Of a stretch of 64,000 nucleotides of DNA, positions 925-51,066 are shown piece by piece. Source of the stretch: Pecten maximus (Eukaryota); NCBI RefSeq assembly GCF_902652985.1, contig NC_047017.1:21018001-21082000 (forward strand), written 5' to 3'. A program made the translations under genes and the position numbers. Numbering within the stretch: position 1 is the stretch's first letter; each line of letters begins with the position of its first letter. The notes under the pieces were generated by a model. That model ran no database searches. It saw only the letters and a list, made by a program, of their open reading frames with translations, and was not told where the DNA came from.

Positions 925-2909
925 CTGAAAAATTCCTTGTTTAATTGGTAACCTAGAAGAGAAAATATTCCTAATCAATGGCCTTCGAAAGCCGATCAAA
1001 TGTTCGAGAAGTGTGCTTCAATTTAGCCCCCACACAGGCCTGATACGAATGAACATTGCGATCCCACCATGTGCTTGACTAATTGGTCTTTCCGGTATTA
1101 AAATGCTCGACTTAATTTTTCCCTCAAACAATTGTTCCAAATGTAACCCCAGATAATGAGAATTTTAATTTCGACATGTACTGCTCAAGGGAACTACTAA
1201 CTGTCTATAGAAGCCTAAAGCGAAAAACTGCCTATTAATTGCGAAGTGCTTGTAGATCAACAATAATAAAAATGTTTTTTAAAATCAAATTTCCTGCCTT
1301 AAAACCCTTTCAGCTGATATAGCACTGGCCATCACATAGAATGTACAGTACATGCTGCAAGCAGCTTCACAGTAAACAGCCTTAAGACTTTTTACCAGAT
1401 TACAAGACGAATCCCAGCAATCTGACATGGCGCCAATCCTTTGTAGGATCCAACAATGCACTGTAACAGTACCCATCCTCTTTTTGATTGGCGATATTTG
1501 CTGGGCATAGAATTTCTTAGAAGAAGGAATTAATCCATACGAAATTCTCATGGATCTGTGACAATTTCATTGTTCTGAAGTATCATCAGAGATATTTTTG
1601 TCTGATATTTCATGGAAGTGAGACATAAATGTCATGATTTTGACTCAGCCCCTGTACCTATGACAGAGCTGTGAGAGGGATTGACCGCAACTGCACTCTG
1701 TTACTCAATGTCCCTCGGGAAGCGGCCGCACATCCAGACCAATTACGTTCCGCGTTAATCATGCTCATTTATGTTACTACATTCTCTACATAAAGTGCAA
1801 AAATTATTCTTGTCATTTCATTTGCATTGATTTTCCTGATCTTGCTGTTAGTAATCCAAACACTCCCTATACCACGGTCATAAGTCTGTAGAGACACACG
1901 TTTACAATTATCATGTGAGAAATATCTGCACCCTATTCTGGGGTCAAGAGTCATGTATTTACGTCTAAGGAAATATTCCATTGCACAGGAAGAAATGAGG
2001 GTCATGTGAAAATGCTGTAGGAGCTATTGCACAATATCTACGGAGGAAAATAACAAGCACGATGTCTCTCGAGGAAAACAATATTTTTTATCTTCAAATG
2101 TTTAAGATTATAAAGTGTCAGCATCATTATGAAAGGCATTTTTGAAACTTGTTTGAATTCAACATGTCATTTATGTTAAACATAAACATTTGAAAATATT
2201 TATATCCCTTCTCTATCAGAATTCATCTTGACCTGAAATTTCCCCCAATATACAGACAACTAAGACATCATAGATACCATGAACAAGTTGATATTCCATG
2301 ACTATTTTCTAGAAATTTTTTTATAGAAATGATTAAACGTTGATGATTTAGTAAATTTAAAGCTGTATGCAAAAACTTTTGAAAGAATAAATTTCTATTT
2401 CATGATATAAAACTAGAAATAAATTTTAGTTGAAAGTTATTGTTAAGAAGCTATCATCAAGGATAATTACCCTTCCATGCCAGATATCAAACTGAAGTCA
2501 TTATTGATTTCAATACCTGATCAGGGATTTCATGATAAATGTTTGCAGAGACAATATTGTGCATGTCAGCTTATGGTCAAAGAATTGCAATGCAAAACCA
2601 GTAGATGGCTAGATTGTCCTAATCTACCAAGCGGTGAGAAATATAATTATACTGTTATACCGAGCTAAAAAGGAACTGTGTGTTGAAGAAAAGAAAACTA
2701 CCTCTATGGTACGGCATACCATTCTGGTGAAAGGACTAATAGTCAAGTGAAAGTATAACAAACATTTTATAAAAGTTCACTAAAAAATGTCTGGAAATTT
2801 CATAACAAAAGTGAGTAAACAGCTACATAGCCTATGAACAACAATCACTAAATTTTGGCAAAGTGAAAATCCAGAAAGATAAGAAAAAAAAAATTAACAA
2901 TCCACTTAC

Positions 2910-3070
2910 CTCCCTTGTTTTCCTCTTCACCAGCACATGATGCCAGTGGTTGTCATCAAAGCGATAGACACCTGGTCGGATTTCGGATTCATACGTTCCA
3001 GATCCAAGATTAACCGTGACACTAACTCCGCCATTTTTCAGAGACACGATCAAGAAATCACTTCCTTGGC
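2910..3070 (-). CDS. NRXN: Alpha-neurexin-like internal exon (161 nt, phase 1 to phase 0), LNS2 continuation ending at the SS2 position
   Basis: Acceptor gatatttcAG (3071-3072), donor GAG|GTAAGT (2908-2909). Joins the upstream exon in frame (G|GC=Gly). Translates GQGSDFLIVSLKNGGVSVTVNLGSGTYESEIRPGVYRFDDNHWHHVLVKRKTRE, matching the LamG motifs LKNGxV, NLGSG and FxDNxWH. Confidence 0.92.
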
Positions 3071-4384
3071 CTGAAATATCAAAAGATATTGTAGATGATA
3101 AAATACGATGAAAACAACATTGATCAATCAAGAAGGGCATCGCTGTGTGTGAAAACTGAAAACAAGCCCCTCATACATAAATACACTCGTCAAATCTTAG
3201 TTTGATAATAAAAGCATCTACATGTATTTTTTTTTAGAGGAATCCCTGAGGAGGGGTTACATATTACTCTTTAACAATACGTTAATATATACAGACTGGA
3301 TACAAGGGGCTCCTGAGCTCGCTGACTTTCAGTCATTGTAATAACTTGAACTAAGAAAACTTATTTCACAGAGGAAAAGAACCCTTCAAAGTGCTCCATT
3401 ATGACTTCACCTTTTCCTTAAACCACTCAAATATAGAGGTTATCTCTCTTTGCTCACAACAAAATATTCTGTCAAGATCAATCTTCATATACAATAGAAA
3501 AAAAAATACAATTTAATGACTGAAATATTTTATGTTATAATAAAGACTTGATGTATTTTAAAACTACAAATACTGATTATGTTGTGAAGTTTCAAAGGCC
3601 TGATAGTAACAGAAAACCTTCTGCTATGTACTGAAATAATTTTATTAGTGAGGGGTACTAATATATTGCATTAATTGCTTAAATGTAAAGTAAACATCTA
3701 TGTAAGTGTCTGCCAATGAATTTCAAGATTCATCGCTTTTAAAGAATTTTTTATGAAATTGAAGAAGATCAAGAAAACCTTCGGAGATGAAAGACCTGAG
3801 CCTTTAATAACATTTTTATTCAATTTCAACAACAAAGGTAGTTCTATCCATTAAATTAAAACATAATGGAAAAAAGAAAGGGGTCAATTTGATTGTCACA
3901 AAGCTCCAGAACACTCCAGGATTAATCCCTTAACGATGACCAGAGCTAGCCAGGCCTATGTCATCCACAAAGTTTATATATGGTGTCCGTATCACTTAAG
4001 TGTCCATGGGAGGCTAATTACGGGGACAAAGTGATGGTAACAGGTTGGTAGGCTGCCAAGGCGAGTAAAAACATTTACTGACGATGCCATGTAGTCAGTT
4101 TCTAGATGCCGAGTAAAAGCAGGAAAAGTCTATATACTTAACAACATAAAGACAAGAAGCCGTTGATCGGAGATGTCGTGAGCAGCCTTCGACTCTACCG
4201 ATGTACAAAGGCTTCTCGGCATTTTACCATTAGGTATGGGATTACTAAAGGAAACAAACGATATGACAATATACAGTCATTATGCTGTAGACAGCAATTA
4301 ATCAAAGGTACAAGCAGACTACAGGCAACAGCTTTCACCAATGAAATCTATACCCCTTCTTAAATAGAAGAACAGGTAGTAAAA

Positions 4385-4928: not shown

Positions 4929-5059
4929 CATTTTGTATCTATCTTAGAAATTAAAAGCAAGAGTATCCAAGGGACAAGAAACCATGGTATCAAAAAGGAG
5001 TTAATTTAATCTTAAACATCTCTTGATCAGATGTGAATGAGCAGACGCAGAAAACATAC

Positions 5060-5203
5060 CTGTGTAGAAGAGAAGGCCGCTGGGCTGTCGTGTGCGGAAG
5101 TAAAGACTAACTTCGTCTGTATTACTAGTCGGAGCACCCTTTGCTGGCCATTCATACATGAAATATTGTGAGCCAAAAAACGTAACTTCAGAAGGGGTTC
5201 TTT
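5060..5203 (-). CDS. NRXN: Alpha-neurexin-like internal exon (144 nt, phase 1 to phase 1), start of LNS2/laminin-G domain
   Basis: Acceptor ctcttttgtcttttcAG (5204-5205), donor G|GTATG (5058-5059). Translates xRTPSEVTFFGSQYFMYEWPAKGAPTSNTDEVSLYFRTRQPSGLLFYT(G), resembling the neurexin LNS2 start as I recall it (ATFxGSEY...DEITLSFKT...NGL..HTG; insect ...FRTRQPNGLLFYTG). Confidence 0.9.
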
Positions 5204-6199
5204 CTGAAAAGACAAAAGAGCAAAACAGAAATAAGCACAAGTGTATTCAGCAAACAACTTTACAATGCAAATGCACAAGATATTAGTACCTTTCAATACA
5301 AAATCCATCCTTGTAGAACTTGTCAATGATGCTGAGGACAGAAAGTGTTGATACTTAGGGGCAATGGAGGACGGTCAAAAGGACCACCAACCAAATCTGA
5401 ATGGGTATAGGCATAACATCTTTATAATTAAATAAATTCCATTACTTTTAATATTAGATTTTAAAAGTACAGTATTATAATCCATAACATTTTAAATTCT
5501 AAACATATTTTTGCACTAAAATACATTTTTTCTAATGATTGCTACATCAGTTTAAGGAGAATCTTACTGCTTAGTTCAGGTATAATTCCCTATATCCAAT
5601 GTTAAACATAACAGTCTGGCTGAGTTTACGACACATAATCTCCCAACCCCACCTGTGATATAATGAATTATCCCAGTGAGATAAATACATGTTGTAGTTC
5701 ATCAGCTCGTATTCAACTGTGGCTTGGATAGCACTACAAATAAATTATGATCACATGATTTCCTCTTATGATTCCTCATCTCCTGCCATTTATGCACACT
5801 GCTTGTCTTTATCACATACATAAAGGTTTATCAAAATTGCCTCTTTTAACGTTAACACACAATCTTTTATATAAACTTATTACACACCATAATCAGCAGG
5901 AATTGTGGTACTTAATTATATCATAGTAATGACAAATCTTGTTAAAATATTACTTTAAACGTTGACCTATATGACCTTACCACGTGGGTTGGGCATTAAA
6001 CACTTCAGTTGTTTATTATGCTATAATCAAGAAACTAACAAAATATGTCAAGTTGTAAGTATCACGTCATAACAAATATGACCTTAATATGTAACTTAAT
6101 TGGACTGATATGTACATCAGAGCGTTGTACCACATAAAACGCTTTAAGAACACATCTAGAAAAAGGACAACATCCACATACCCCTAAACAGCGTTTACG

Positions 6200-14400: not shown

Positions 14401-15609
14401 TTCCTTTGTCTATTACTGAGAATAGACCTTGTATTTATTGGAAATATTCTATGGTTTAATTGCAGTTATTATGGTGTTTGAAAAAATTGTTTTGTCAGAT
14501 AGCCTGCAGAAGGCATTTTTTAATGTTGCAGATCATTAATATAGCCTGCAGGAAAAACACAGCAAATTACAGCAAAGAAATACAATATGAACATATGGAA
14601 TTAACACGGAAACGAATACAGTGTTATATGCCTTAAACCTGTATCTCAATACCTATAATATCTCTATATATATTAACAAATATTTGTCTGGTTTTAGGTC
14701 CAGACATGGTACAGTATATGGTAACTGGACCTCCGTATAAAGGTCACCTGGCTATAAGGGCAACTATTCTCTACTCCCTTGAGGGACAGACTTGATGGTT
14801 AAGATAAAGCCAACACAAGTGGATCGCTTACTCAACCTACATTTTTTCTGAACATCTTTGACAATTAATGCTGATGTACCTTCAGGCAGCCTGCTGAAAT
14901 CAAGTTACTCAACACACATCGTAAGACTTCATTCCATGTCAAATGCACACCCACGCCAACACATTCACCCACAACTCCAATCTACAATTACACACCTTCA
15001 GCATTTCGGACTTATCCCAGTTTATGTACTAACACGTTCGGTTCAGACAGCATTAGTCCCTAAAGTCCCATCACTCACAGAAACGCTTGACAATGTCATT
15101 ATATATAATTATGTTTATACTGAAGCATAAAAAGAATCGTCATATGTTTTTATAACAGTAATTACATGTACTGAAAATTCATTCTCAATGCAGATTAATT
15201 ATACCCAATTGAACTTTCTAACGACTCTTGTAATGAAACTTATAATAAATTTGCTTTTAGGTTTTTTTGCTTTTTTTTTTTAATTTGATCTCATTCAATA
15301 CTGAAATGTCTGTGATATGAGACAAGCAGACAAGAAATATAAAAAAATCCACATGTTTTGATAAAATTAAAATATAAGGTTGTCATGAGTCATGACTAAC
15401 TCTGAGCTCTGGGAATCAATAGACAGATTACAGAGTTCATGTTTGATAGGTACCCATATTGGAATATATAATCGATGGAAGATATCTTACTCCAGCTATA
15501 CATGTAAACACAGGATGAGCCCAGATATTAGTAAATAAAGAGGTAGGTATCCTTTACCTTTGAAGGGCAATATAAATTATACATTCTATGGAATTTCCCA
15601 TCTTCATTA

Positions 15610-16320
15610 GAATTTCACCTCCAACCAAACCTTGTTTGGACCATACTAGTCAAACATTCAAAAGAACTCTACCTCTAATGAACTCTTGTATTAACCATAC
15701 AAATCAAACATTCAAAGGAATTTTACCTCCAACCAACACTTGCATAAGTTGCAAGGACCATACAAATCAAACATTTAAAGGAATTTTACCTCATACCAAC
15801 CCTTGTAAGGGCCATACAAATCAAACATACAAAGGAACTTTACCTCATACCAACCCTTATAAGGGCCATACAAATCAAACATTCAAAGGAATTTTACCTC
15901 ATACCAACCCTTATAAGGACCATACAAATCAAACATTCATAGGAACTTTACCTCATACCAACCCTTGTAAGGGCCATACAAATCAAACATTCAAAGGAAT
16001 TTTACCTCCAATGAACTCTTGCAATGAATTCTACCTCCAGCTAATCCTTGTATGGGCCTTACAAATCAAACATTCAAAGGAATTTTACCTCATACCAACC
16101 CTTGTAAGGGCCATACAAATCAAATATTCAAAGGAATTCTACCTCTAATGAACTCTTGCAATGAATTTTACCTCATACCAACCCTTATAAGGGCCATACA
16201 AATCAAACATTCAAAAGAATTCTACTTCTAACGAACTCTTGTAATGAATTCTACCTCCAACCAATATGACCATACAAATCAAACATACAAATGAATTTTA
16301 CCTCCAACCAACCCTTAATG
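15610..16320. repeat. 54-bp minisatellite, ~12 copies with truncated variants
   Basis: Unit ccatacaaatcaaacattcaaaggaattttacctcataccaacccttgtaaggg; explains the 18-aa-periodic ORF 15588-16148. Confidence 0.92.
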
Positions 16321-17109
16321 TGAGAACTAAGAGAGTTTTTAAGGATATGATAGAGCAAATTCTCATGTTTCCATGAAGAGAAAAAATATGAAGAAAACAA
16401 AACTGAGAAATTGTGAAAAAAACAACAAAAAACAAAAGTAAGCTTGCTTGAATTTAATGTTCCTTGTAGTTCATTTGCTGTGAACTACATATCTTTATTA
16501 CATATTTGTTGAATTGTTCTAGGTCCAAAATTGGAGAAATATTAAGATTTATTTAATGTTTCTCAGAATACTTCAACAGAAAAAGACAGAAAAAAAACAC
16601 AAAGCAACTCCACATTGGCCATAAAGACAATCAACATGTCTGTTATAGCAGAGGATAGTGGAGAGAAGCAGGCGAACCTACCAGTTGATATGTCTGCTTG
16701 AACAAGTCTGGCCAAGATAAAAGCCATTTCAAGTTCTCCATAACAATATAGCATGTTCACAAGCCAGTATTTTTGATAAAAAAGAAGCAAGACACAGATA
16801 AATTATGTAGTTTCAAAATCTAGGGAAAGTATTCTGTATTATATGATGGCAATAACGTTAGAAACAACTTTTTCTGCAGACAGACGTTTCAGGGCAAGGT
16901 TCCACAGTGGTAATCACAGAGGAAGTCACAAATTCAAATACATTTGATACATTAATCTTATTTATTTCTTGCTTTATCTGACTTTTGATTCATTTTCTTT
17001 TTTTTCTTTTTTTTTTTTTTGTGTACTAATTGATATACATTTCTATACATATATATGTAAATATACTAATTAATACAGATAATATTATCCACTTCTTTAG
17101 ATGAGTAGT

Positions 17110-17560
17110 TTTACCAGGTGGAAACAACTGTATGACATGAACATAGCTCCCCCTGGTGGCAACAACTGTATGACATGAACATAGCTCCCCCTGGTGGCAA
17201 CAACTGTATGACACGAAACAGTAGCTCCACCCGGTGGCACCAAATGTTATTATATGACACAAACATAAATGCCCCCTGTTGGTAACAATTTAAGACACAA
17301 TCATAACTCCCACTGGTGGCAACAACTGTAAGACACAATCATAACTCCCCCTGGTGGCAACAACTGTAAGAAACAATCATATAGCTCCCCCTGGTGGCAA
17401 CAACTGTATGACACAATCATAGCTCCCCCTGGTGGCAACAGCTGTATGACACAATAATAGCTCCCCCTGGTGGCAACAATTGTATGACACAATAATAGCT
17501 CCCCCTGGTGGCAACAATTGTATGACACAATCATAGCACTCCCTGGTGGCAACAACTATG
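17110..17560. repeat. 38-bp minisatellite, ~11-12 copies, each with a CTCF-like motif
   Basis: Unit tagctccccctggtggcaacaactgtatgacacaatca; the reverse complement contains TTGCCACCAGGGGGAGCTA. Confidence 0.92.
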
Positions 17561-18469
17561 CAACTGTTGAAGTGCCCCCTTGGTCTCAACTCTGTCTTGT
17601 AAACATGTGGCAATTATATCATAGTTCCTTTAAATTTTTAGACCTATATGATTCAATCATAATTTTGTGTAAAAGGAAAATCTTCTAAGATACAGAACAG
17701 AGTTCTGATAGCATTATGCATTAGTCATATTGGTGTAGACATCAGCTAAATTTTATTGGCCAGCATAAATTGACATTACAGGAAAATTTTGAAATTATAT
17801 ACAATTTCTATATACATGTACATGCAATTTCTATATACAATTTCTATATACAATTTATAATCTTATTTGGAGTATTTCTATAGGGACTTAACAAGAAATT
17901 TACAAAGTGTTCCAAAATTTGCACATTTTGCAATATCTTGTTTCCAAATGTGTATGTATGAAGGATGTTCCAATAGAGAAGTAATTTGTGCAAGTGTAGA
18001 ACCTGTCTGTCTGCCTCTACACACTTGTCCATCACCAGTCAGTGGTTCTACCAGGATGTATAACTACAGACAGATACCCAGCCCAGACCGATCCCTTTGA
18101 TTCAGCTCTCCTCCATGTTATTTATACCAGTAGAGATACACTCACACTATGTATTATCATGTAGACATTGTCTTATCCTACATATCCCCCTTTGTTTTCT
18201 GATTACATTGTAATCCATCATATTTATCATAGATAATGTAATACCTGTGTCTATCTTTTTGATACACCACAACTTCCTCCATCAGCAGTTCCAATCTATT
18301 ATTTTTCAATTTAATCATTGGCCCCGATAGGACAAACAGGGCTTCAAGATATGTTTTTATCAAGCATTGCACTTAATGAACCCATCTTATAGCTTTGTTT
18401 ACATCCTGTGTTCCTGTATAAACATAAATGCCCTAAACCCTGTTTTCCTATGCATATATATAATATGCC

Positions 18470-19410
18470 AAGTTATCTAGATATCCTATACCTATATATA
18501 CAATACTTAGATATCTGATACCAAGATATCATGTTCCTACATATCATATACATATATTCTCTACTAGATATTCTACACCATGATATCCTTAACATTAATA
18601 TCCTATACCATGATATCCTGTATCTAGATATCCTATACCGAGATATCCTTTACCATATAATGTCCTGTTCCTTGATATTGATACCTAGATATCATATACC
18701 TAGATATTCTGTACCTTGATATCCTTTGCCATTATATCCTACACCATGATATGCTATCCTGTACCTTAATATCATATACCTAGATATCCTACATATATAT
18801 ATCCTAAACCTAGATATTCCATACCTTGATATTCCATACATTGATATTCTTTACCTTGATATCCTATATCCAGATTTCATATACCTAGATATCCTTTACC
18901 TTGATATCTTTACCCTTGATATCCTATATCCAGATTTCATATACCTAGATATCCTTTACCTTGATATCTTTACCCTTAATATCCAATACCTAGATATAAT
19001 ATGCTTTGATATGATATCCTGTGAATAGATATCATATACCAAGAAATCATTTACATTAATATCACATGCCTATGTATATCCTAAACCTAGATATCCTTAA
19101 TAACTATAGATTTCTTTTATCTTCTTTCCTATACATATATATTTCATACCTATATATATGATACTTTGATATCCTATACCTTATCATATCCTCCTAAACA
19201 TTGATATCCCAGATATTCTATACCTATACAGACATCCTATACCTTAATATCCTCCTAGACCATGATATCCTAGATATTCTATACCTATACAGACACCCTA
19301 TACCTTGAGATCCTCCTAAACATTGATATCCCAGATATTCTATACCTATACAGACATCCTATACCTTGATATCCTCCTAAACATCAATTGATACCCTAGA
19401 TATTCTATAC
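18470..19410. repeat. Degenerate ~15-16 bp GATATC-rich repeat with secondary ~60-bp periods
   Basis: Word gatatcctatacct(a/t)g; 60-bp duplication around 18855-18975 and ~60-bp units at 19190-19410. Confidence 0.85.
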
Positions 19411-22400
19411 ACCAACACATTACGTTTATACATCTCTTGGCCCATTACCTGTAATTCTCACCTTTTCAAACCAATACCCACCAACCCCTCTATCTGCCAC
19501 AACATTGACCTCATTCTCTCACCACCTACAAATGCTTCTAACATCAAATTCTGGCCAATACCCCTGTCAAATATATCATCACATACCCTAATTGGAGTTT
19601 ATAGCTGAATTACAGTAACCCCCAACCCACCGTTAAAACACATGGCAAACTGTAATCAAGTCGATATTGGGACTCATAATCCCTTCATTACAACGGCTAC
19701 ATAGTGAAAGTGAAGTCTTTCTCTCACGGTAATGTCATATCGGTGAAACAAAGTCGAGCAGTTATGCGTTAGCTATACCAAAAATAGACAATCAAATTAC
19801 TACAGCATATTAAATTTTCATTACTTTAGCAGGAACAACAACACATTAAAGAAGACTAAGGGAAGTTTTTATATCACTAGTATAATATAGTATATACACC
19901 CCTCCCCTCAGTATAAAACACCTGACTTAACCTAAAAAGTACAAAAAAAAGTATAGAGTTTGCAAGAAAAACAAATAATTATGTAATTAATAGTACACAA
20001 AGACTCCTGTTATTGTTTTTCCTTTTCACATGATGCACTCTTTTTTGCTTCAAAGCTCTTTCCTGAAGGTTTTTTTTTTTCGGAAATTTTTACTTTAAAG
20101 TACATTTTTTAGAAATCCAATTTTACACACCTTTATATATATATTTCATTAAGCAAAGTTTAGCGAATAGTAATATGATGCTGTGATATGTTAGCTGAAG
20201 TTAATATTCAAGCGAAATCCTATTAGTGTTTGAGTTTAATGTACTTGTACCTTTCAACACTATAATGCATCACGTAGAACCGGCCTGAAAGTTTTCCAAT
20301 CGACCGAGTGAAAAATCAATGAAATAAAACAGTTCTTATATATATACATGTATATGCATCACAATAAAACAAGCCCTGGAGCAAATCCTACACTTAAATT
20401 CTAGACTAAGCTTGTCTTCCCATTCTCATGGCGATAAAGCTTATAGTTTTGAACAATAAAAAAATTGAGTTAAAAACATTGTACTTCAATTTGCTAAAGG
20501 AAATTCTTGTGTATGCAAGCATAACATGTGCATCTTATTCTAGCGTTACAAACTGACACCAGTCCTTCTTCTCAATGTATATCAATTCACAAATCAGATT
20601 AGGAAATGTTTTTATAAGATTTAAAAACCAGTAAAGACCTTGTCTCACAAGAGACACTGATCGGTCCTGTGCTAATTTCCAGTTTGAAGATTTCCTGTTT
20701 TGTCAATACAGCAAAGCCTACAAAATTAGAGCATTGTAAAAAAAAAAAAATACAAATGTGAAGTAGGTTCGACAAGCTAGGGAACGTCCCTAGTCAATCA
20801 AGACAAGGCGCAAACATACACCGCAAATGTACGACAGCAGACACCATCACCAAAACACAATACAAATATTGCATGCTGCTCCAACTCATGCCGATAGAGG
20901 CATGGATCCAAGTTCCTTAAAGACTGCTGTATTTCTGTGTGTCCTATGTGCACCTAAACGTTACACAGGGACATTCCAGAACTATGATCATCCCATCTAG
21001 ATTCCACGATTCCATGTCATGCCGCATTAGCATGTGAATCCAGTGATTAAATTCCCTCTATCCTGTTCTCATTTTTTTTTTTTTTTACAAAACTCATTTT
21101 CTGCTGTCTTTCTGTAGATCGGCTCCAGCTAGTAAGTAAATTATTTACAAACCAAATAATCGACAAAAGTTACTAGATCTTGTAGACACTGGACGTTAGA
21201 TGTCTGAGAGATGTCGCAATAAAAATACCTGCTTGTGCGATACATGTTTAAACCCCGCCATCCGATCCTCCGTTACACAATACAGTATATACAGTTAAGG
21301 CCTTGAAGCTATACTTTTAGTAATATACTTTTGTTAGAACCAATATTTCTGAATATAATTATTTAATTTTAAAATTTTAAGACAATTATTATATATATAC
21401 AAACAGTTTCAATGCAAGTTGAAGTGTACCAGCAGCATCCTTTTTGAACAGTTGAAATGAAAAGCACTTAAACTGTCACTTCATTATATGCGAGTAAACA
21501 ATTTGTAGTTTTTCCAAACCAAATAAGCACTTATAATCATAAAACTATATCACACTTCGTGAAACTTAGTCTGTTTTTTTTTTTTTTTTTTAAAGAAATT
21601 TGTGTTTGGTTGTGTAGAAACGTTTAAATGTACTTTACTTATCAAGTTTCAAAACATGTCAAGAACCAAGAAAAACTGTAGGTATGTTATCAAACCTGAC
21701 AAGTCTGTGAGATAAGTTAGCTAACAGGGTTGTGTTACTTCAGGAGAGACATGTACGATATATATATAATCTGCCGGAGACAAGTCCGTCCAGAGAGTTT
21801 CAGATGTTTGCATCCCTTGCAGTGAGGGGGTGTACATCATCATCTCAGGACATGATTTAGGATCAACCAGTGAGCCAGGAAAACCTAGCACTTGTTGACA
21901 CTATTTGATAATTAACTTCAGTCAGAGTTAATTATTTTCCCAACATTTTCGCCATTTTTATACCACCACTGCAAGATTTGAATGTTTACAAAAGGCAAAA
22001 ACAAGCAACAAAGTTCAACAAGAAAACGATTATTTAACTTGTTAGTGCCAAAATTGTAGACATTATTCCTAGCCATGGAAAGACAAACAGTTATATACAT
22101 ATTTCATATCACTTCATGTTGTTAAGTGTCAAGGATGTAGGTACACTTCTAATTTCTTCTGTCAAAATGTTGAGAAACTTCCAGAAGCTAAGGTGCTAAC
22201 AGGTCGAGACAAGCGTTAGACGATACAAACAACGTTTCCAGCGATGTTAAAGTTCTAAGACATTTTTCACACTGACGGTGCCAAGGCAACTTGACAGACA
22301 ACTTCGACTAAATTAAAAATCCACACAACACAACAAAATTGTGTTGAGGTGGCTGTACAGAATACAAGAGAGGCCTCATTAATGCAGAATATGTGTGAAA

Positions 22401-25652: not shown

Positions 25653-27966
25653 AAAACAAGAGATCCCAGAGGGATCTTGGCGCCCACCATTGAATGATCT
25701 TCATAGGTTCCATGTCAGATTGATCTTTTCTCTACTTTTCCCTTCTTCTAAGTCTTACTAATCCTAATCTGTGTAAATACAGAAACAGCCCTCTATAGCT
25801 AGTACTTTTCAAACAAGGGGAAACTATATATAAAATTTAAGATTTAGCGATAATGGCTGTCTGTCGACCATGTTTTTGGATTGGTCCCAATATGCAAAAC
25901 TAGGCACTGAGGGGAACCTACATATGAAATTTGAGAAAGATCCCTTGAGTGCTTTCTGAGAAATAGCGATAACAAACTTCAATTGTCAAAATCCAAGATG
26001 GCTGCCTGTCGGCCATGTTGTTTTCTGATTAGTTTCAAAATGCAATATGCATAACTAGGCACCAAGGGGAACCTACATATGAAATTTGAGAAAGATCCCT
26101 TCAGTACTTTCTGAGAAATAGCGATAACAAACTTCAATTGTCAATATCCAAGATGGCTACCTATCAGCCATGTTGTTTTCTGATTGGTCTCAAAATGCAA
26201 TATGCATAACAAGGCACTGAGGGGAACGTATGTATGAAATTTGAGAAAGATCCCTTCATTACTTTCTGAGAAATAGCGATAACAAACTTCAATTGTCAAA
26301 ATCCAAGATGGCTGCCTGTCGGCCATGTTGTTATCCGATTGGTCTCAAAATGCAATATGCATAACTAGGCAACAAGAGGAACCTACGTATGAAATTTGAG
26401 AAAGATCCCTTCATCACTTTCTGAGAAATAGCGATAACAAACTTTAATTGTCAAAATCCAAGATGGCTGCCTGTCGGCCATGTTGTTTTCCGATTGGTCT
26501 CAAAATGCAATATGCATAACTAGGCACCAAGAGGAACCTACATATGAAATTTGAGAAAGATCCCTTTAGTACTTTCTGAGAAATAGCGATAACAAACTTC
26601 AATTGTCAAAATCCAAGATGGCTGTCTGTCGGCCATGTTGTTTTCCGATTGGTCTCAAAATGCAATACGCATAACTAAGCACCAAGGGGAACCTACATAT
26701 GAAATTTGAGAAAGATCCCTTCAGTACTTTCTGGGAAATAGCGATAACAAACTTCAATTGTCAAAATCCAAGATGGCTGCCTGTCGGCCATGTTGTTTTC
26801 CGATTGGTCTCAAAATGCAATATGCATAACTAGGAACCAAGTAGAACCTACATATGAAATTTGAGAGTGATCCCTTCAGTCTTTTCTGAGAAATAGCAAT
26901 AACAAACTTCAATTGTCAAAATCCAAGATGGCTGCCTGTCGGCCTTGTTGTTTTTCGATTGGTCTCAAAATGCAATATGCAAAACTAGGCACCAAGAGGA
27001 ACCTACATATGAAATTGAGAAAGATCCCTTCAGTACTTTCTGAGAAATAGCGATAACAAACTTCAATTGTCAAAATCCAAGATGGCTGCCTGTCGGCCAT
27101 GTTGTTTTCTGATTGGTCTAAAAATGCAATATGCATAACTAGGCACCAAGAGGAACCTACAAATGAAATTTGAGAAAGATCCCTTCAGTACTTTCTGAGA
27201 AATAGCGATAACAAACTTCAATTGTCAAAATCCAAGATGGCTGCCTGTCGGCCATGTTGTTTTCCGATTGGTCTCAAAATGCAATATGCATAACTAAGCA
27301 CTAAGGGAAACCTACATATGAAATTTGAGAAAGATCCCTTCAGCACTTTCTGAGAAATAGCGATAACAAACTTCAATTGTCAAAATCCAAGATGGCTGCC
27401 TGTCGGCCTTGTTGTTTTTCGATTAGTCTCAAAATGCAATATGCATAACTAGGCACCAAGGGGAACCTAAATATGAAATTTGAGAAAGATCCCTTCAGCA
27501 CTTTCTGAGAAATAGCGATAACAAACTTCAATTGTCAAAATCCAAGATGGCTGCCTGTCGGCCATGTTGTTTTCCGATTGGTCTCAAAATGCAATATGCA
27601 TAACTAGGCACCAAGGGGAACCTACATATGAAATTTGAGAAAGATCCCTTCAGTACTTTCTGAGAAATAGCGATAACAAACTTCAATTGTCAAAATCCAA
27701 GATGGCTGCCTGTCGGCCATGTTGTTTTCCGATTGGTCTCAAAATGCAATATGCATAACTAGGCACCAAGGGGAACCTACATATGAAATTTGAGAAAGAT
27801 CCCTTCAGTACTTTCTGAGGATTAGCGATAACAAGAATTGTTTACGGACGGACGGACGGACGGACGGCCGGAGGGACGGACGGACGGACGGAGGGACGGA
27901 CGGACGACGGACCACGGACGCAGGGCGATTTGAATAGCCCACCATCTGATGATGGTGGGCTAAAAA
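25653..27966 (-). mobile_element. Non-autonomous Helentron-associated element (HINE/DINE-1-like), complete
   Basis: On the minus strand: TTTTT, 12-bp-arm palindrome tagcccaccatc-N4-gatggtgggcta (27935-27962), (GTCC)n microsatellite (~27845-27915), 155-bp tandem array, subterminal repeat (plus gcccacc 25682-25688), stem-loop agatccc-aga-gggatct (25661-25677), then TTTT. Confidence 0.9.
25845..27840. repeat. 155-bp satellite-like array inside the HINE, 12 full copies plus a partial
   Basis: aattgtcaa recurs at 25981, 26136, 26291, 26446, 26601, 26756, 26911, 27065, 27220, 27375, 27530, 27685. Confidence 0.95.
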
Positions 27967-29090: not shown

Positions 29091-31482
29091 TAGGAGGGTA
29101 GGAGATAGGACCTGGGACGTGGTGAGAGGGGTAGAGAAGGGTAAGGGAAGGTAGGAGATAGGACCTGGGACATGGTGAGAGGGGTAGAGAAGGGTAAGGG
29201 AGGGTAGGAGATAGGACCTGGGACGTGGTGAGAGGGGTAGAGAAGGGTAAGGGAGGGTAGGAGATAGGACCTGGGACATGGTGAGAGGGGTAGAGAAGGG
29301 TAAGGGAGGGTAGGAGATAGGACCTGGGATGTGGTGAGAGGGGTAGAGAAGGGTAAGGGAGGGTAGGAGATAGGACCTGGGACGTAGTGAGAGGGGTAGA
29401 GAAGGGTAAGGGAGGGTAGGAGATAGGACCTGGACATGGTGAGAGGGGTAGAGAAGGGTAAGAGAGGGGTAGGAGATAGGACCTTGGACATGTGGTGAGG
29501 AGGGGTAGAGAAGGGTAAGGGGAGGGTAGGAGATAGGACCCTGGGACACGGTGGAGAGTGGGTAGAGAAGGGTAAGGAGGGTAGGAATAGGATGCTGGGA
29601 TGTGGTGAGAGGGGTAGAGAAGGGTGGGAGGGTAGGAGATGGACCTGGGACTTGGTGAGAGGGGAGAGGAAGGGTAAGGGAGGGTAGGAATAGGATCCTG
29701 GGGGACGTAGTGAAGGGGTAGAGAAGGGTAAGGGAGGGTAGGAGATAGGACCTGGACATGGTGAGAGGGGTAAGAAGGGTAGGGAGGGTAGGAGAATAGT
29801 GACCCTGGGACGTGGTAGGAGGGGGTATAGAAGGGTAAGGGAGGGTAGGAGATAGGAACCTGGGTACTGGTGAGAGGGGTAGAGAAAGGGATAGGAGGGT
29901 AGAGATGGACCTGGGACACGGTGAGAGGGGTAGAGAAGGGTAAGGGAGGGTAGGAGATAGGACCTGGGACATGGTGAGAGGGGTAGAGAAGGGTAAGAGA
30001 GGGTAGGAGATAGGACCTGGGACACGGTGAGAGGGGTAGAGAAGGGTAAGGGAGGGTAGGAGATAGGACCTGGGATGTGGTGAGAGGGGTAGAGAAGGGT
30101 AAGGGAGGGTAGGAGATAGGACCTGGGACGAGGTGAGAGGGGTAGAGAAGGGTAAGGGAGGGTAGGAGATAGGACCTGGGATGTGGTGAGAGGGGTAGAG
30201 AAGGGTAAGGGAGGGTAGGAGATAGGACCTGGGATGTGGTGAGAGGGTAGAGAAGGGTAAGGGAGGGTAGGAGATAGGATCTGGGACGTAGTGAGAGGGG
30301 TAGAGAAGGGTAAGGGAGGGTAGGAGATAGGACCTGGGATGTGGTGAGAGGGGTAGAGAAGGGTAAGGGAGGGTAGGAGATAGGATCTGGGACGTAGTGA
30401 GAGGGGTAGAGAAGGGTAAGGGAGGGTAGGAGATAGGACCTGGGACGTGGTGAGAGGGGTAGAGAAGGGTAAGGGAGGGTAGGAGATAGGACCTGGGATG
30501 TGGTGAGAGGGGTAGAGAAGGGTAAGGGAGGGTAGGAGATAGGATCTGGGACGTAGTGAGAGGGGTAGAGAAGGGTAAGGGAGGGTAGGAGATAGGACCT
30601 GGGACACAGTGAGAGGGGTAGAGAAGGGTAAGGGAAGGTAGGAGATAGGACCTGGGATGTGGTGAGAGGGGTAGAGAAGGGTAAGGGAGGGTAGGAGATA
30701 GGACCTGGGACACGGTGAGAGGGGTAGAGAAGGGTAAGGGAGGGTAGGAGATAGGACCTGGGACGTGGTGAGAGGGGTAGAGAAGGGTAAGGGAGGGTAG
30801 GAGATAGGACCTGGGACACGGTGAGAGGGGTAGAGAAGGGTAAGGGAGGGTAGGAGATAGGACCTGGGACACAGTGAGAGGGGTAGAGAAGGGTAAGGGA
30901 GGGTAGGAGATAGGACCTGGGACGTGGTGAGAGGGGTAGAGAAGGGTAAGGGAGGGTAGGAGATAGGACCTGGGACACGTGGTGAGAGGGGTAGAGAAGA
31001 GTAAGGGAGGGTAGGAGATAGGACCTGGGACATGGTGAGAGGGGTAGAGAAGGGTAAGGGAGGGTAGGAGATAGGACCTGGGACGTAGGTGAGAGGGGTA
31101 GAGAAGGGTAAGGGAGGGTAGGAGATAGGACCTGGGACGTGGTGAGAGGGGTAGAGAAGGGTAAGGGAGGGTAGGAGATAGGACCTGGGACGTAGTGAGA
31201 GGGGTAGAGAAGGGTAAGGGAGGGTAGGAGATAGGATCTGGGACGTGGTGAGAGGGGTAGAGAAGGGTAAGGGAGGGTAGGAGATAGGACCTGGGACGTA
31301 GTGAGAGGGGTAGAGAAGGGTAAGGGAGGGTAGGAGATAGGACCTGAGACGAGGTGAGAGGGGTAGAGAAGGGTAAGGGAGGGTAGGAGATAGGACCTGG
31401 GATGTGGTGAGAGGGGTAGAGAAGGGTAAGGGAGGGTAGGAAATAGGACCTGAGACGAGGTGAGAGGGGTAAAGAAGGGTAA
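29091..31482. repeat. 53-bp purine-rich minisatellite, ~45 copies, with a G-quadruplex motif per unit
   Basis: Unit ggagataggacctgggacgtggtgagaggggtagagaagggtaagggagggta. Confidence 0.97.
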
Positions 31483-32354
31483 GAAAAAAATGTCTAATGG
31501 GATCGAGGGGTTTTAGAGCGGGTAAAAGGAGAGCTAGAAGGAATCGCAATAAATTGAGGCCTGCTATGCCCCTCCTCAGCCTCTGTCTAACTAATGTATA
31601 ACATATTGAATTAGCTCCGAGGCTACATACTCAAGGCATATAAAACTGATGGACTTTGGATGTATATATCATTTACGGGCTGATTGTTGGCGAAGATAAA
31701 CAAATTTCATGCTGATTTAATTCAAACTGAACAAATATGATGATGCCGATATCACTATACAATGAACTTATCTATTCTGCTTGTCAAGATACTCCCTGCA
31801 GACTTTTGAAAATTAATTACATCATCAACAAGCATGCAGCCCGTTTCTGTGAGAAACTATATAGCAGAGTGCCAGGTCAAGTTTAATGTACACTTGAACA
31901 AACCCATCTATATCACCAATACTTATATAACATAATTATCAAACCTACACAACATGGATTTTTTGGAAGCTTTATAAGTGTTTACAAACCATTATGTAAG
32001 TAGGTGACTCCCGCATTGAGGACAACTTAAGATTTTGTTGGTTTTTAAAAACAATCTTGAGTAATAGATAAAATAATAACGAGATTTAAAATCATTTATG
32101 AATTTCCTTTTGATTAACATTTTGTGAAAATGAGTCTTAGTAGTCAGTGTATTTTTTTATTTTTTTTTTAGATATAAAAAGTCTGTTGCTGTTCTTAAGT
32201 CAACTAATTAAATTATTGCATCTTTGAGAATGGGATACATCTTTGTGTGGTGTTGTCTCACCTGTGTACATTAGCGATGTATTTAAATATTCCCTAGGAG
32301 AGAGATAAGATGGTAACTACCGTAAATATGTGCATATAGTGCACACTTCTAGGG

Positions 32355-48670: not shown

Positions 48671-51066
48671 AAAATATTTCCCCGTCAGTTTCCCTTGTGC
48701 TTGTGATTGTAAATATTGTATCCCCTGCTTGTGATTATTGTTTTCCTACTCTGATTGTGAAGAATGTGTTCACTCCCTCGATTGTGAATATTAATGTTAT
48801 TACTACCCTGATTGTGAATATAGTTTAATTTTCCAAATGTGAATTCCATCCCTCTGTGAATGTGATACTCACCTATTCCTACAGTGTGTCAGAATAGTGA
48901 GAATGGGTGCAGCGCATGCCATTATGTAGAGCGATACATAACTAATCCTAGTTTTAATGACTTCCTAGACAAACATCATCCTCTTCACTGAGACACACTA
49001 ATACTCAATAAATCTCCTTTAAAAAGCATTATAAAATTTTATGTATAATCAAAGAAAACTTACGTTTCAGATTTCTGCGAGGATTTCTTGGAGCACTTCC
49101 TGTCCAAAAGAAGTTTCATAAAATAATAACAATATTGCTGACAAAATCTGACTTTTGATTTACTAAACTTAATCACAATAAAATTGAACAGAGTTGCCTC
49201 TTGATGAATTGAGTTATTTCCTGATAATTCACACAAGTGCATAATATATTTATTGCTTTTAATTTTGTTCAAGATGAGATTTGTTAAATCTTCCACCTTT
49301 TACTAAACTTCAAGTTCTTTGCAGAGGCCTTATAAAGCTGTTTTTGTTTGAGCTTCAATAAAATCAACTGAAACTTTTTATTTCATTTCTGTTTCAATCT
49401 AAATCTTTGAGCATGGTGTCAATATTTGTCAACATACTCATTGATGCTAAAGATTTGTAGTATCTGACCAACTACAGCAAAACAACAGGGATGGGAACAA
49501 TCATTCAAAATAATACCAGTATATCTGATTCAGAACTTCAGCTAGAGATCATGTTTTCTGGATATAAACCACAATGGATTATTAGAAAGGAGATCAAAAA
49601 CCACACTGAAAGTTTTCGCAATTTATCTTTAAAATTTAGTTTAAATGAAGTCGGTAATATGGTATATACTTGACAGGCTCCCGTATAAACATTCAAGTCG
49701 TTGTCACATACCCCAGTTCACCGCCTGATTCAATCTACACTGACATGGTTTTTATTAAAGACAACTTCGCACAAACATCAGAACAAGCTTACAAGACAAT
49801 CTCTTATAACGTGTATGTTCACAGCCACACAATTCATCATCACCAATATAATTACGGCTTTGATGAAATCTTCAACAGTAGTCCTGAGACGAGCACTGTC
49901 ACTCACTCTGAGCCAGGACTTTAATCATACAGCCACATTATTAGATCACACTAAAACAAATCATATCATTAACCCCCAACAGATGACAGATGAACACTTG
50001 TTGAGCAGCTATACAACCAAGATGGAGGATGGTTGCCGTGGCGCCATGACCTGGCGAGCGCATGTCACAGAGCACTCTGGATGATGTGCAATCAAGCGCG
50101 GCAGTAACTCTACATCAGTAATTACACATACACTAATGTTCTGTAACTTTTATTGCAGTAATTAGTTTTATTGCTTTAAGAGTGCAAAAGACAATATGGA
50201 GCCCAAGCATGGAGTCATTCAGAATGTTTCGGTCCACATCCCGTAGATTTATGGTATACCACTAATAGCACGATTGTTTTGCTTCTCAGATCGGTAAAAG
50301 GGTACAAATTGCTGTGTTTATCATAGATTATCACACAGTGCGTGGGAAATATATGGATCTTGTTGACTTATTTACAACCAAGAACGACCATTAAATTTTG
50401 TAGTCAACAGATATTTCTTCCTGAATTTTAAAGGAAAGAAATTTGATTTAAACACCTGAACAATATTAAGATGTATAAGAATGAACTTAAATTCCAGTTA
50501 TTTATATTTTTCACAACATAATTGGAACATTTGTTAAAGTGCTGTTCTAAGTTCTGAGTTCTAATTCATTAGCTGGAGTTGTTGTCTAATTTACAATAGT
50601 GAAGATTTTTACACTAAAGAAACATACTGAAAACACGATAATTTTGGTGTGCTCAAATTTTATACCTTTTTATTTTATTACTGAATATACAGATATACCT
50701 CAATGATAAATTATTACAACCAAAATGATTGCAGGAGAAAACAGTATAAACAGCAATTAGGCTAATCATAATTTAGCAGAAGGTTTTAAGCATGAAAACC
50801 ATTAAAATAAGATAACCACTAAAATATGTAGGCTTACAGTATTCACTAAAGTGCCCTTCCACAAAAATAAAACAACACAAAAACTGGGAATCCATTCTAG
50901 AACTTTTGGAATGATAAAGCAGGATTTTATTCATTACTCGTGATACTTGTTAATTATAAAAATAGTTTCTTCATCATTGCAGAGAATAGATTCAAAAATT
51001 CCAGCTCCCTAAATGGGCCTGCAACTCAAACTGTCTTGATGTGATATATAGAAGAGAAACAAATTG

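What the first reader, a model, noticed from the sequence alone, without database searches (positions are those of the whole stretch)
17140..17585. Tandem array of co-oriented CTCF-like sites built from a 38-bp minisatellite inside a neurexin intron
Seen: the unit's reverse complement reads TTGCCACCAGGGGGAGCTA, and the core ctccccctggtggc is intact 7 times (about 17147, 17185, 17345, 17385, 17423, 17461, 17499) plus 4-5 variants, all in one orientation. Known: the CTCF consensus is TGGCCACCAGGGGGCGCTA (2 mismatches in 19), CTCF is present in most bilaterians, and clustered co-oriented sites form strong insulators or loop anchors. Inference: a copy-number-variable insulator or Pol II pause element about 12 kb upstream of the SS1-adjacent exon.
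Basis: partly seen in the sequence, partly recalled or inferred. Interest (0 to 1): 0.7.

Follow-up and report, generated by a model that had tools for sequence, protein, structure and literature searches.

The report
Scallop minisatellite carrying CTCF-type site
A 38-base repeat of 11 copies inside a scallop neurexin intron carries a close match to the docking site of the genome-folding protein CTCF, but it is one of at least 12 such repeats in a genome crowded with repeats, shows no sign that the site is kept by selection, and is likely an ordinary site that was copied by accident rather than a purpose-built insulator.

Summary
In detail: a 38-bp minisatellite (17117-17557, 11.3 copies) has 7 exact, co-oriented cores, in a neurexin intron 12 kb before the LNS2 exon and 31.5 kb after an SS1-type mini-exon. 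The motif is real in this genome: the 14-mer occurs 66 times against 1 for the reversed control. The array is not unique: 12 minisatellites with different spacers carry the motif, in a genome about 22% minisatellite. Motif positions are no better kept than spacers once ascertainment is matched (p=0.31), variants ignore the consensus (15 of 60), and a second organism has a shorter array whose four readable copies are all damaged. No CTCF gene was located here, and binding is untested. Best reading: neutral amplification of a CTCF-type site, likely bindable. One residue is open: best-consensus sites sit in arrays more often than expected (6 of 33 against 1.65%), though not replicated in a second set (2 of 40). 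The scan found such arrays before in sharks.

The parts
17117..17557 (-). 38-bp minisatellite, 11.3 copies; units 1-2 and 6-11 near-identical, units 3-5 diverged (40, 48, 34 bp)
17146..17159 (-). CTCF-type 14-mer, full match (copy 1)
17184..17197 (-). CTCF-type 14-mer, full match (copy 2)
17224..17320 (-). three diverged motif copies (near 17225, 17270, 17307)
17344..17357 (-). CTCF-type core with a variant last base (tail AGT)
17384..17511 (-). four full 14-mer matches at 17384, 17422, 17460, 17498
17536..17550 (-). last, diverged motif copy
49064..49099 (-). 36-nt SS1-type neurexin mini-exon flanked by AG and GT; matches the 12-residue insert of relatives P0003 and P0004, absent from P0001; upstream boundary of the host intron
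5049..5203 (-). neurexin exon starting LNS2; downstream boundary of the host intron (3' end approximate, from tblastn)
2904..3074 (-). next neurexin LNS2 exon (Laminin_G_2, E 2.5e-10; ends approximate)

Best explanation
This is a single-locus intronic minisatellite that likely arose when a short stretch holding one ordinary CTCF-type site was duplicated head to tail, and it likely drifts in copy number and sequence without selection on the motif. Shown: the array, its place in a neurexin intron, the genome-wide excess of the motif, 11 other arrays with other spacers, and no extra conservation of the motif. Inferred: slippage or unequal exchange, which makes roughly a quarter of a million minisatellites in this genome, sampled a pre-existing site; recent homogenisation spread an intact unit in this lineage while the second organism's copies decayed; co-orientation follows automatically from tandem duplication. 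Inferred and untested: scallop CTCF would bind the intact copies (the 14-mer has no CpG, so methylation would not block it), giving at most a local, dispensable roadblock or weak boundary.
For: Unit found nowhere else. Minisatellites cover 22.1% of a 400-kb sample, 115 arrays, and 24% of this window, 21 arrays. The 14-mer: 66 hits = 27 single sites + 7 arrays + 1 duplicate contig, against 1 control hit and 1.1-4.5 expected from Markov models; unsearched bases after the motif are biased (T at +14 in 17 of 27; C at +16 in 24 of 51) in the direction of the CTCF logo as I recall it. Motif vs spacer: matched null p=0.31; 15 of 60 variant types are consensus-compatible against 24% expected, p=0.46. 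Organism B: array about 144 bases shorter, about 86% alike, like its flanks (93% and 86%); 9 listed changes in 42 motif positions vs 11 in 75 others; 4 of 4 readable copies damaged. At the 11-mer level the share of loci in arrays (10 of about 374, an estimate) is not above baseline (p=0.09).
Against: Before matching for ascertainment the motif was less variable than the spacer in 10 of 12 arrays (p=0.003). The array has persisted in two organisms. Two aligned copies and most of 145 unaligned letters in organism B could not be read and may be intact; its units may not pair one to one with ours. No CTCF gene was located in G000, which weakens the step 'would bind'.
Confidence: 0.6

Rival explanations
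1. The array is a working, copy-number-tuned CTCF cluster (insulator or one-way loop anchor) that partitions the 74-kb first intron region of neurexin and is kept by selection.
For: It holds the only loose-consensus sites in 224 kb (7 of 7 hits); near-best motif without CpG (2 CpG in 441 bases); present in two organisms; CTCF-like motifs are reported at squid domain borders (PMC9023564, passages) and cephalopod loop anchors (PMC13652810, passages).
Against: No excess conservation; damaged copies in organism B; no convergent partner found in 224 kb; in an annelid CTCF motifs are mostly single, at promoters and without directional order (PMC7854359, passages).
Confidence: 0.15
2. CTCF-type sites themselves provoke tandem duplication (a bound-protein roadblock to replication or repair), so the arrays are a mutational by-product concentrated at such sites; this array is one product.
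For: 12 arrays with different spacers; 6 of 33 and, pooled, 8 of 73 loci in arrays against 1.65% (p=3e-5); in the tail-blind pair search 122 pairs vs 8 control, with G at motif position 13 in 7 of 10 other loci (my count). This fits the lack of selection as well.
Against: Second, independent set of equally good variants: 2 of 40 (p=0.14), one of them only a short duplication; random minisatellite units are already richer in CCACC (4.2x), CCAGG (2.5x) and G runs than other DNA; 11-mer level not significant.
Confidence: 0.17
3. The resemblance to CTCF is incidental: a G-run or Chi-like word favoured in minisatellites, or the site of some other zinc-finger protein.
For: Word bias in random units; CTCF gene not located; many 12-mer hits belong to a dispersed repeat with another tail; 13 of 27 single sites lie in long open frames, some in confirmed exons.
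Against: The reversed control has the same CCACC and G run yet gives 1 hit; the Chi-like pattern (recalled) is in 1 of 135 random units; the tail bias holds in sites without long frames (T in 10 of 14); chance would put about 0.02-0.06 such 14-mers in all units of the genome (arithmetic).
Confidence: 0.05
4. CTCF on the array pauses RNA polymerase II and so steers inclusion of the SS1-type mini-exon.
For: A 36-nt exon that is present in P0003 and P0004 and absent from P0001 bounds the intron; the motif lies on the sense strand. CTCF-linked splicing is known in mammals (PMC7124252, listing and one reference line).
Against: The array is 31.5 kb after the mini-exon and 11.9 kb before the next exon; the known cases act at or beside the exon (recalled).
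Confidence: 0.03

Closest known systems
DXPas34 minisatellite at mouse Tsix (PMC3149622, passages read)
   Same: Short-unit (30-34 bp) tandem repeat with a CTCF site per monomer; site number varies between related species and is lost in one vole.
   Different: DXPas34 is CpG-rich, lies at a promoter and has tested roles; this array is CpG-poor, deep in an intron, in a mollusc, with no binding data.
SLC6A4 Stin2 intronic VNTR (PMC2848977, abstract and introduction read)
   Same: Intronic variable repeat of 9-12 units in a neuronal gene, linked to CTCF.
   Different: 16-17-bp units, binding shown by ChIP and reporter effects; here 38-bp units with a closer consensus match but nothing measured.
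CTCF-bearing macrosatellites DXZ4 and ICCE (PMC3491370, PMC3218863, PMC6125249; search listings only)
   Same: Tandem repeats that multiply CTCF motifs.
   Different: Kilobase-scale or X-linked loop anchors whose titles report conserved CTCF motifs; here the motif is not better conserved than the spacer.
Spiralian CTCF sites (annelid Dimorphilus, PMC7854359; squid, PMC9023564; passages)
   Same: Same kind of motif in a related animal group.
   Different: Reported as single promoter sites or as enrichment at domain borders, not as tandem arrays.

Membership tests
CTCF binding site | Match to the core consensus | tested here: met
   13 of 14 to CCASYAGRKGGCRS; A at position 12 is as common as C among single sites here (14 vs 13). 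No position weight matrix was available.
CTCF binding site | Motif over-represented in the host genome | tested here: met
   66 vs 1 and 106 vs 4 reversed controls; the control carries one more CpG, which lowers it somewhat.
CTCF binding site | CTCF gene present in the genome | tested here: inconclusive
   PF23611 (150 of 387 candidates scored) and four recalled-motif patterns gave no CTCF exon; orthologues in three molluscs are cited in PMC10658182 (passage).
CTCF binding site | Upstream (zinc finger 9-11) motif | tested here: not met
   No upstream motif of the recalled kind among 51 single sites; it is optional in vertebrates (recalled).
CTCF binding site | Occupied by CTCF in vivo | not testable with these tools
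   No chromatin data reachable (one search lists none).
Insulator / loop-anchor array | Motif conserved above spacer, within and between species | tested here: not met
   p=0.31, p=0.46; 9 of 42 vs 11 of 75.
Insulator / loop-anchor array | Convergent partner site | tested here: inconclusive
   None by the loose consensus in 40 kb downstream and 184 kb in total elsewhere; weaker or farther sites not excluded.
Insulator / loop-anchor array | Enhancer blocking or contact boundary | not testable with these tools
   Needs reporter or Micro-C data.
Minisatellite (VNTR) | Head-to-tail 10-100 bp units at one locus | tested here: met
Minisatellite (VNTR) | Copy number varies between individuals | tested here: inconclusive
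   Runs X5 and X6 (two studies) hold a joint 17129 to 17329 with 30 letters on the short side; contigs cannot count copies. Between organisms the length differs by about 144 bases.
Transposon-derived (MITE/Helentron) internal repeat | Dispersed copies of the unit or flanks | tested here: not met
   Only self matches; the tool warns that its counts are lower bounds.

The most novel reading that the evidence does not exclude
In scallops, CTCF-type sites are hot spots that seed minisatellites: at least 12 independent arrays (units 33-117 bp, up to 125 copies) have each amplified such a site, several-fold more often than other DNA, so copy-number-variable clusters of CTCF sites arise again and again and give standing variation in chromatin boundaries in an animal group where CTCF's architectural role is still open.
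Probability: 0.25. Interest if true: 0.6.

Novelty: new member of a known kind. Interest (0 to 1): 0.3.

Why it matters
Whether CTCF builds chromatin boundaries in molluscs and their relatives is open (PMC10658182, passages). If bound, these 12 arrays are natural dose series (2 to 125 co-oriented sites, variable between animals) on which binding, insulation and directionality can be read without genome editing. The side result that a CTCF-type motif with a CpG-free variant is enriched in a bivalve genome is useful in itself. For neurexin regulation the finding adds little unless binding and an effect are shown.

Tried and rejected
Dispersed element: unit found only here. Structured RNA: z=+0.34, 59 of 100 shuffles fold as well; no Rfam match in 15000-20000. 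Coding: no exon of P0001, P0003 or P0004 maps to the array. An apparent upstream-motif likeness in the spacer was dropped because single sites show no such motif. The naive result that motifs are better conserved than spacers (p=0.002-0.003) was rejected after matching for how the arrays were found. The 79 vs 10 excess of the 12-mer was not used as evidence, since about 17 of the 41 other loci read belong to one dispersed repeat (my count by eye). CTCF gene hunt failed five times; chance expectation for these patterns is low and introns or divergence may hide the gene, so this is no evidence of absence. Expression: no RNA holder listed. Gene context of the other arrays: 1 Pfam hit among 89 frames, too little to test motif orientation against transcription. 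Heger et al. 2012 is not held. Literature: searches for CTCF with minisatellite, scallop, bivalve, mollusc, Crassostrea or VNTR terms and scallop minisatellites listed no paper on CTCF-motif repeats in a mollusc, judged from titles and abstract starts (25 of 87 listed, 23 of 28); subscription journals are not covered and no supplements were read.

Full report
Observation. The repeat is there as described. TRF finds period 38, 11.3 copies, 85% matches at 17117-17557. The 14-base core is exact seven times at the stated places and within two mismatches three more times, all in one orientation. Units 1-2 and 6-11 are close to the consensus; units 3-5 are diverged and of 40, 48 and 34 bases. Six copies read CCACCAGGGGGAGC on the minus strand, one base off the human consensus CCASYAGRKGGCRS quoted in PMC6746451 (passage). 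Co-orientation needs no explanation: any head-to-tail repeat gives it.

Host gene. Two frames at 5004-5246 and 2835-3170 (minus) match laminin G, the first only weakly. The best protein hits are scallop neurexins, the closest labelled Pecten maximus, and that protein matches neurexin-1-alpha structures at E 3e-278. tblastn over 224 kb places exon 1 about 15 kb beyond the window's right end and the LNS2 exons at 5.2 and 3.0 kb. A 36-nt AG/GT-flanked exon at 49064-49099 matches the 12-residue insert that two relatives carry at the SS1 position (the name SS1 is recalled). The array is thus 31.5 kb after the mini-exon and 11.9 kb before the LNS2 exon.

Is the motif meaningful here? The unit is single-locus, the motif is not. 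CCACCAGGGGG(A/C)GC has 66 hits against 1 for the reversed control and 1.1-4.5 from Markov models of order 1-4; a wider pattern has 106 against 4 (first 100 listed). The 66 are 27 single sites, 7 arrays and one duplicate contig. All 27 singles were fetched: they share no flanks with each other and 26 are not tandem. Bases outside the pattern are biased: T at +14 in 17 of 27 (p=0.0009) and C at +16 in 24 of 51 (p=2e-6), as in the CTCF logo I recall; of 36 positions tested, C at -11 and -8 also reached p about 0.001, so flank richness in C explains part. Against this: the control has one more CpG; 13 of 27 singles lie in frames open for 100 codons or more (30% for random GC-rich words, p=0.03) and some are confirmed exons. 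The tail bias stays in the 14 others (T in 10, p=0.003). I could not locate the CTCF gene. Molluscan orthologues and CTCF-like motifs at cephalopod borders and loops are reported (PMC10658182, PMC9023564, PMC13652810; passages); in an annelid the motif is the top ATAC motif but single and mostly at promoters (PMC7854359, passages).

The array is one of a dozen. Searches reveal eleven more minisatellites whose consensus unit holds the core, with periods 33-117 and 2 to 125 copies; their spacers look unrelated by inspection. Four weaker cases (a 21-bp array with a four-G consensus, a short duplication, a lone pair, a probable coding repeat) were left out. The genome is crowded with minisatellites: 115 arrays and 22.1% cover in 400 kb of evenly placed samples, about 260,000 arrays by extrapolation, with units making 1.65% of collapsed sequence. 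Chance sequence would put 0.02-0.06 of these 14-mers into all units, so the arrays most likely captured existing sites. Whether capture is above the neutral rate is unsettled: 6 of 33 loci without this one (p=1.5e-5 against 1.65%; p=0.005 or 0.07 against the reversed 11-mer, by whether 1 or 4 of about 65 loci count; the script used 66 and three 2-hit control clusters were not fetched), but 2 of 40 in the independent set (p=0.14; 24 of its 38 singles fetched) and 10 of an estimated 374 for the 11-mer (p=0.09). Random units are already enriched for CCACC and CCAGG.

Selection tests. In this array the motif differs from the consensus at 12 of 159 positions and the spacer at 27 of 272 (p=0.49). 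Over 12 arrays the motif is less variable in 10 (p=0.003), but arrays were found by exact motif copies; 87 control arrays given the same filter behave alike (p=0.31 by resampling, 0.22 by rank test). Of 60 distinct substitutions in motifs, 15 stay within the degenerate consensus against 24% expected (p=0.46). One contig of organism B (run X10) spans the locus: flanks 93% and 86% alike, array part 86% alike, about 144 bases shorter. In the part where changes are listed, 9 fall in 42 motif positions and 11 in 75 others; the three copies there lose the first core C, a base of the G run, or several core bases, and a fourth in the loose end also lacks the first C. Seven substitutions and one gap near the ends are not listed, so two copies and most of the unaligned part are unread, and units may not pair one to one. 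Runs X5 and X6, of two studies, show another unit arrangement at the left end, a hint of polymorphism that contigs cannot quantify.

How it most likely works. Shown: a single-locus minisatellite with CTCF-type motifs in a neurexin intron, no RNA structure, no coding role, no measurable constraint on the motif. Inferred: a pre-existing site was caught in a tandem duplication, and turnover has since spread intact units in this lineage. Untested: CTCF would bind the intact copies, which lack CpG, and could form a local roadblock of little consequence. I give this 0.6, site-provoked duplication 0.17, a selected insulator 0.15, incidental likeness 0.05 and splicing control 0.03. In favour of some role, the array holds the only loose-consensus matches in 224 kb; against it, no convergent partner was seen there.

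Known kinds and novelty. Tandem repeats that multiply CTCF sites are known: DXPas34, whose site number also varies among rodents (PMC3149622, passages), the SLC6A4 VNTRs (PMC2848977, abstract and introduction) and DXZ4/ICCE (listings). Earlier notes of this scan describe such arrays in sharks with a similar verdict (unchecked, not used as support; they led me to read the DXPas34 paper); none concerns this genome or this sequence. The searches named under Tried and rejected listed no mollusc case. Verdict: a real feature, new member of a known kind, interest 0.3; the repeated capture of CTCF-type sites across a scallop genome is the part worth a whole-genome test.

Noticed in passing
G000 C7:7.70 Mb (L039), C8:7.24 (L086), C9:15.04 (L087), C17:6.26 (L088), C18:4.08 (L041), C18:9.53 (L040), C10:25.6 (L180), C11:40.06 (L182), C12:39.34 (L183), C17:7.94 (L186), C7:8.72 (L193): Eleven further minisatellites with a CTCF-type core in the consensus unit and different spacers; the largest has about 125 copies of 50 bp.
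   Followed up: yes
window 49064-49099 (minus): 36-nt neurexin mini-exon at the SS1 position, missing from the database protein P0001 but matching inserts in two relatives.
   Followed up: partly
L090, L097, L098, L208 and others: CTCF-type 14-mers inside coding frames, in several reading frames; 13 of 27 single sites lie in frames open for 100 codons or more, and 4 of 11 tested frames pass a Pfam cut-off. More than I would expect by chance; possible exonic sites.
   Followed up: partly
40 random 10-kb stretches, L110-L149: Minisatellites (period 20-150, 3 or more copies) cover 22% of the sample; units are enriched for CCACC, CCAGG and G runs.
   Followed up: partly
window 25888-27920: 155-bp satellite (12.6 copies) followed by an ACGG microsatellite, the layout of bivalve Helentron/MITE-like elements as I recall it.
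   Followed up: no
L016, L017, L027, L028, L033, L047, L052 and others: A dispersed repeat family that carries the 12-base core with a non-CTCF tail.
   Followed up: partly
L196, L201, L213, L216, L217: A small dispersed family that carries a full CTCF-type 14-mer, a possible mobile carrier of sites.
   Followed up: no
L039 929-1150 (minus): MFS transporter exon about 300 bases from the 48-bp array; the motif is on the gene's sense strand, as in the window (below Pfam cut-off).
   Followed up: partly
window 29093-31483: 53-bp purine-rich array of 45 copies with GC skew near 0.8 in the same intron.
   Followed up: no
L089 (C1377) and C3674: Small contigs that repeat the C7:7.70 and C7:8.72 arrays; treated as duplicates and left out of counts.
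   Followed up: partly
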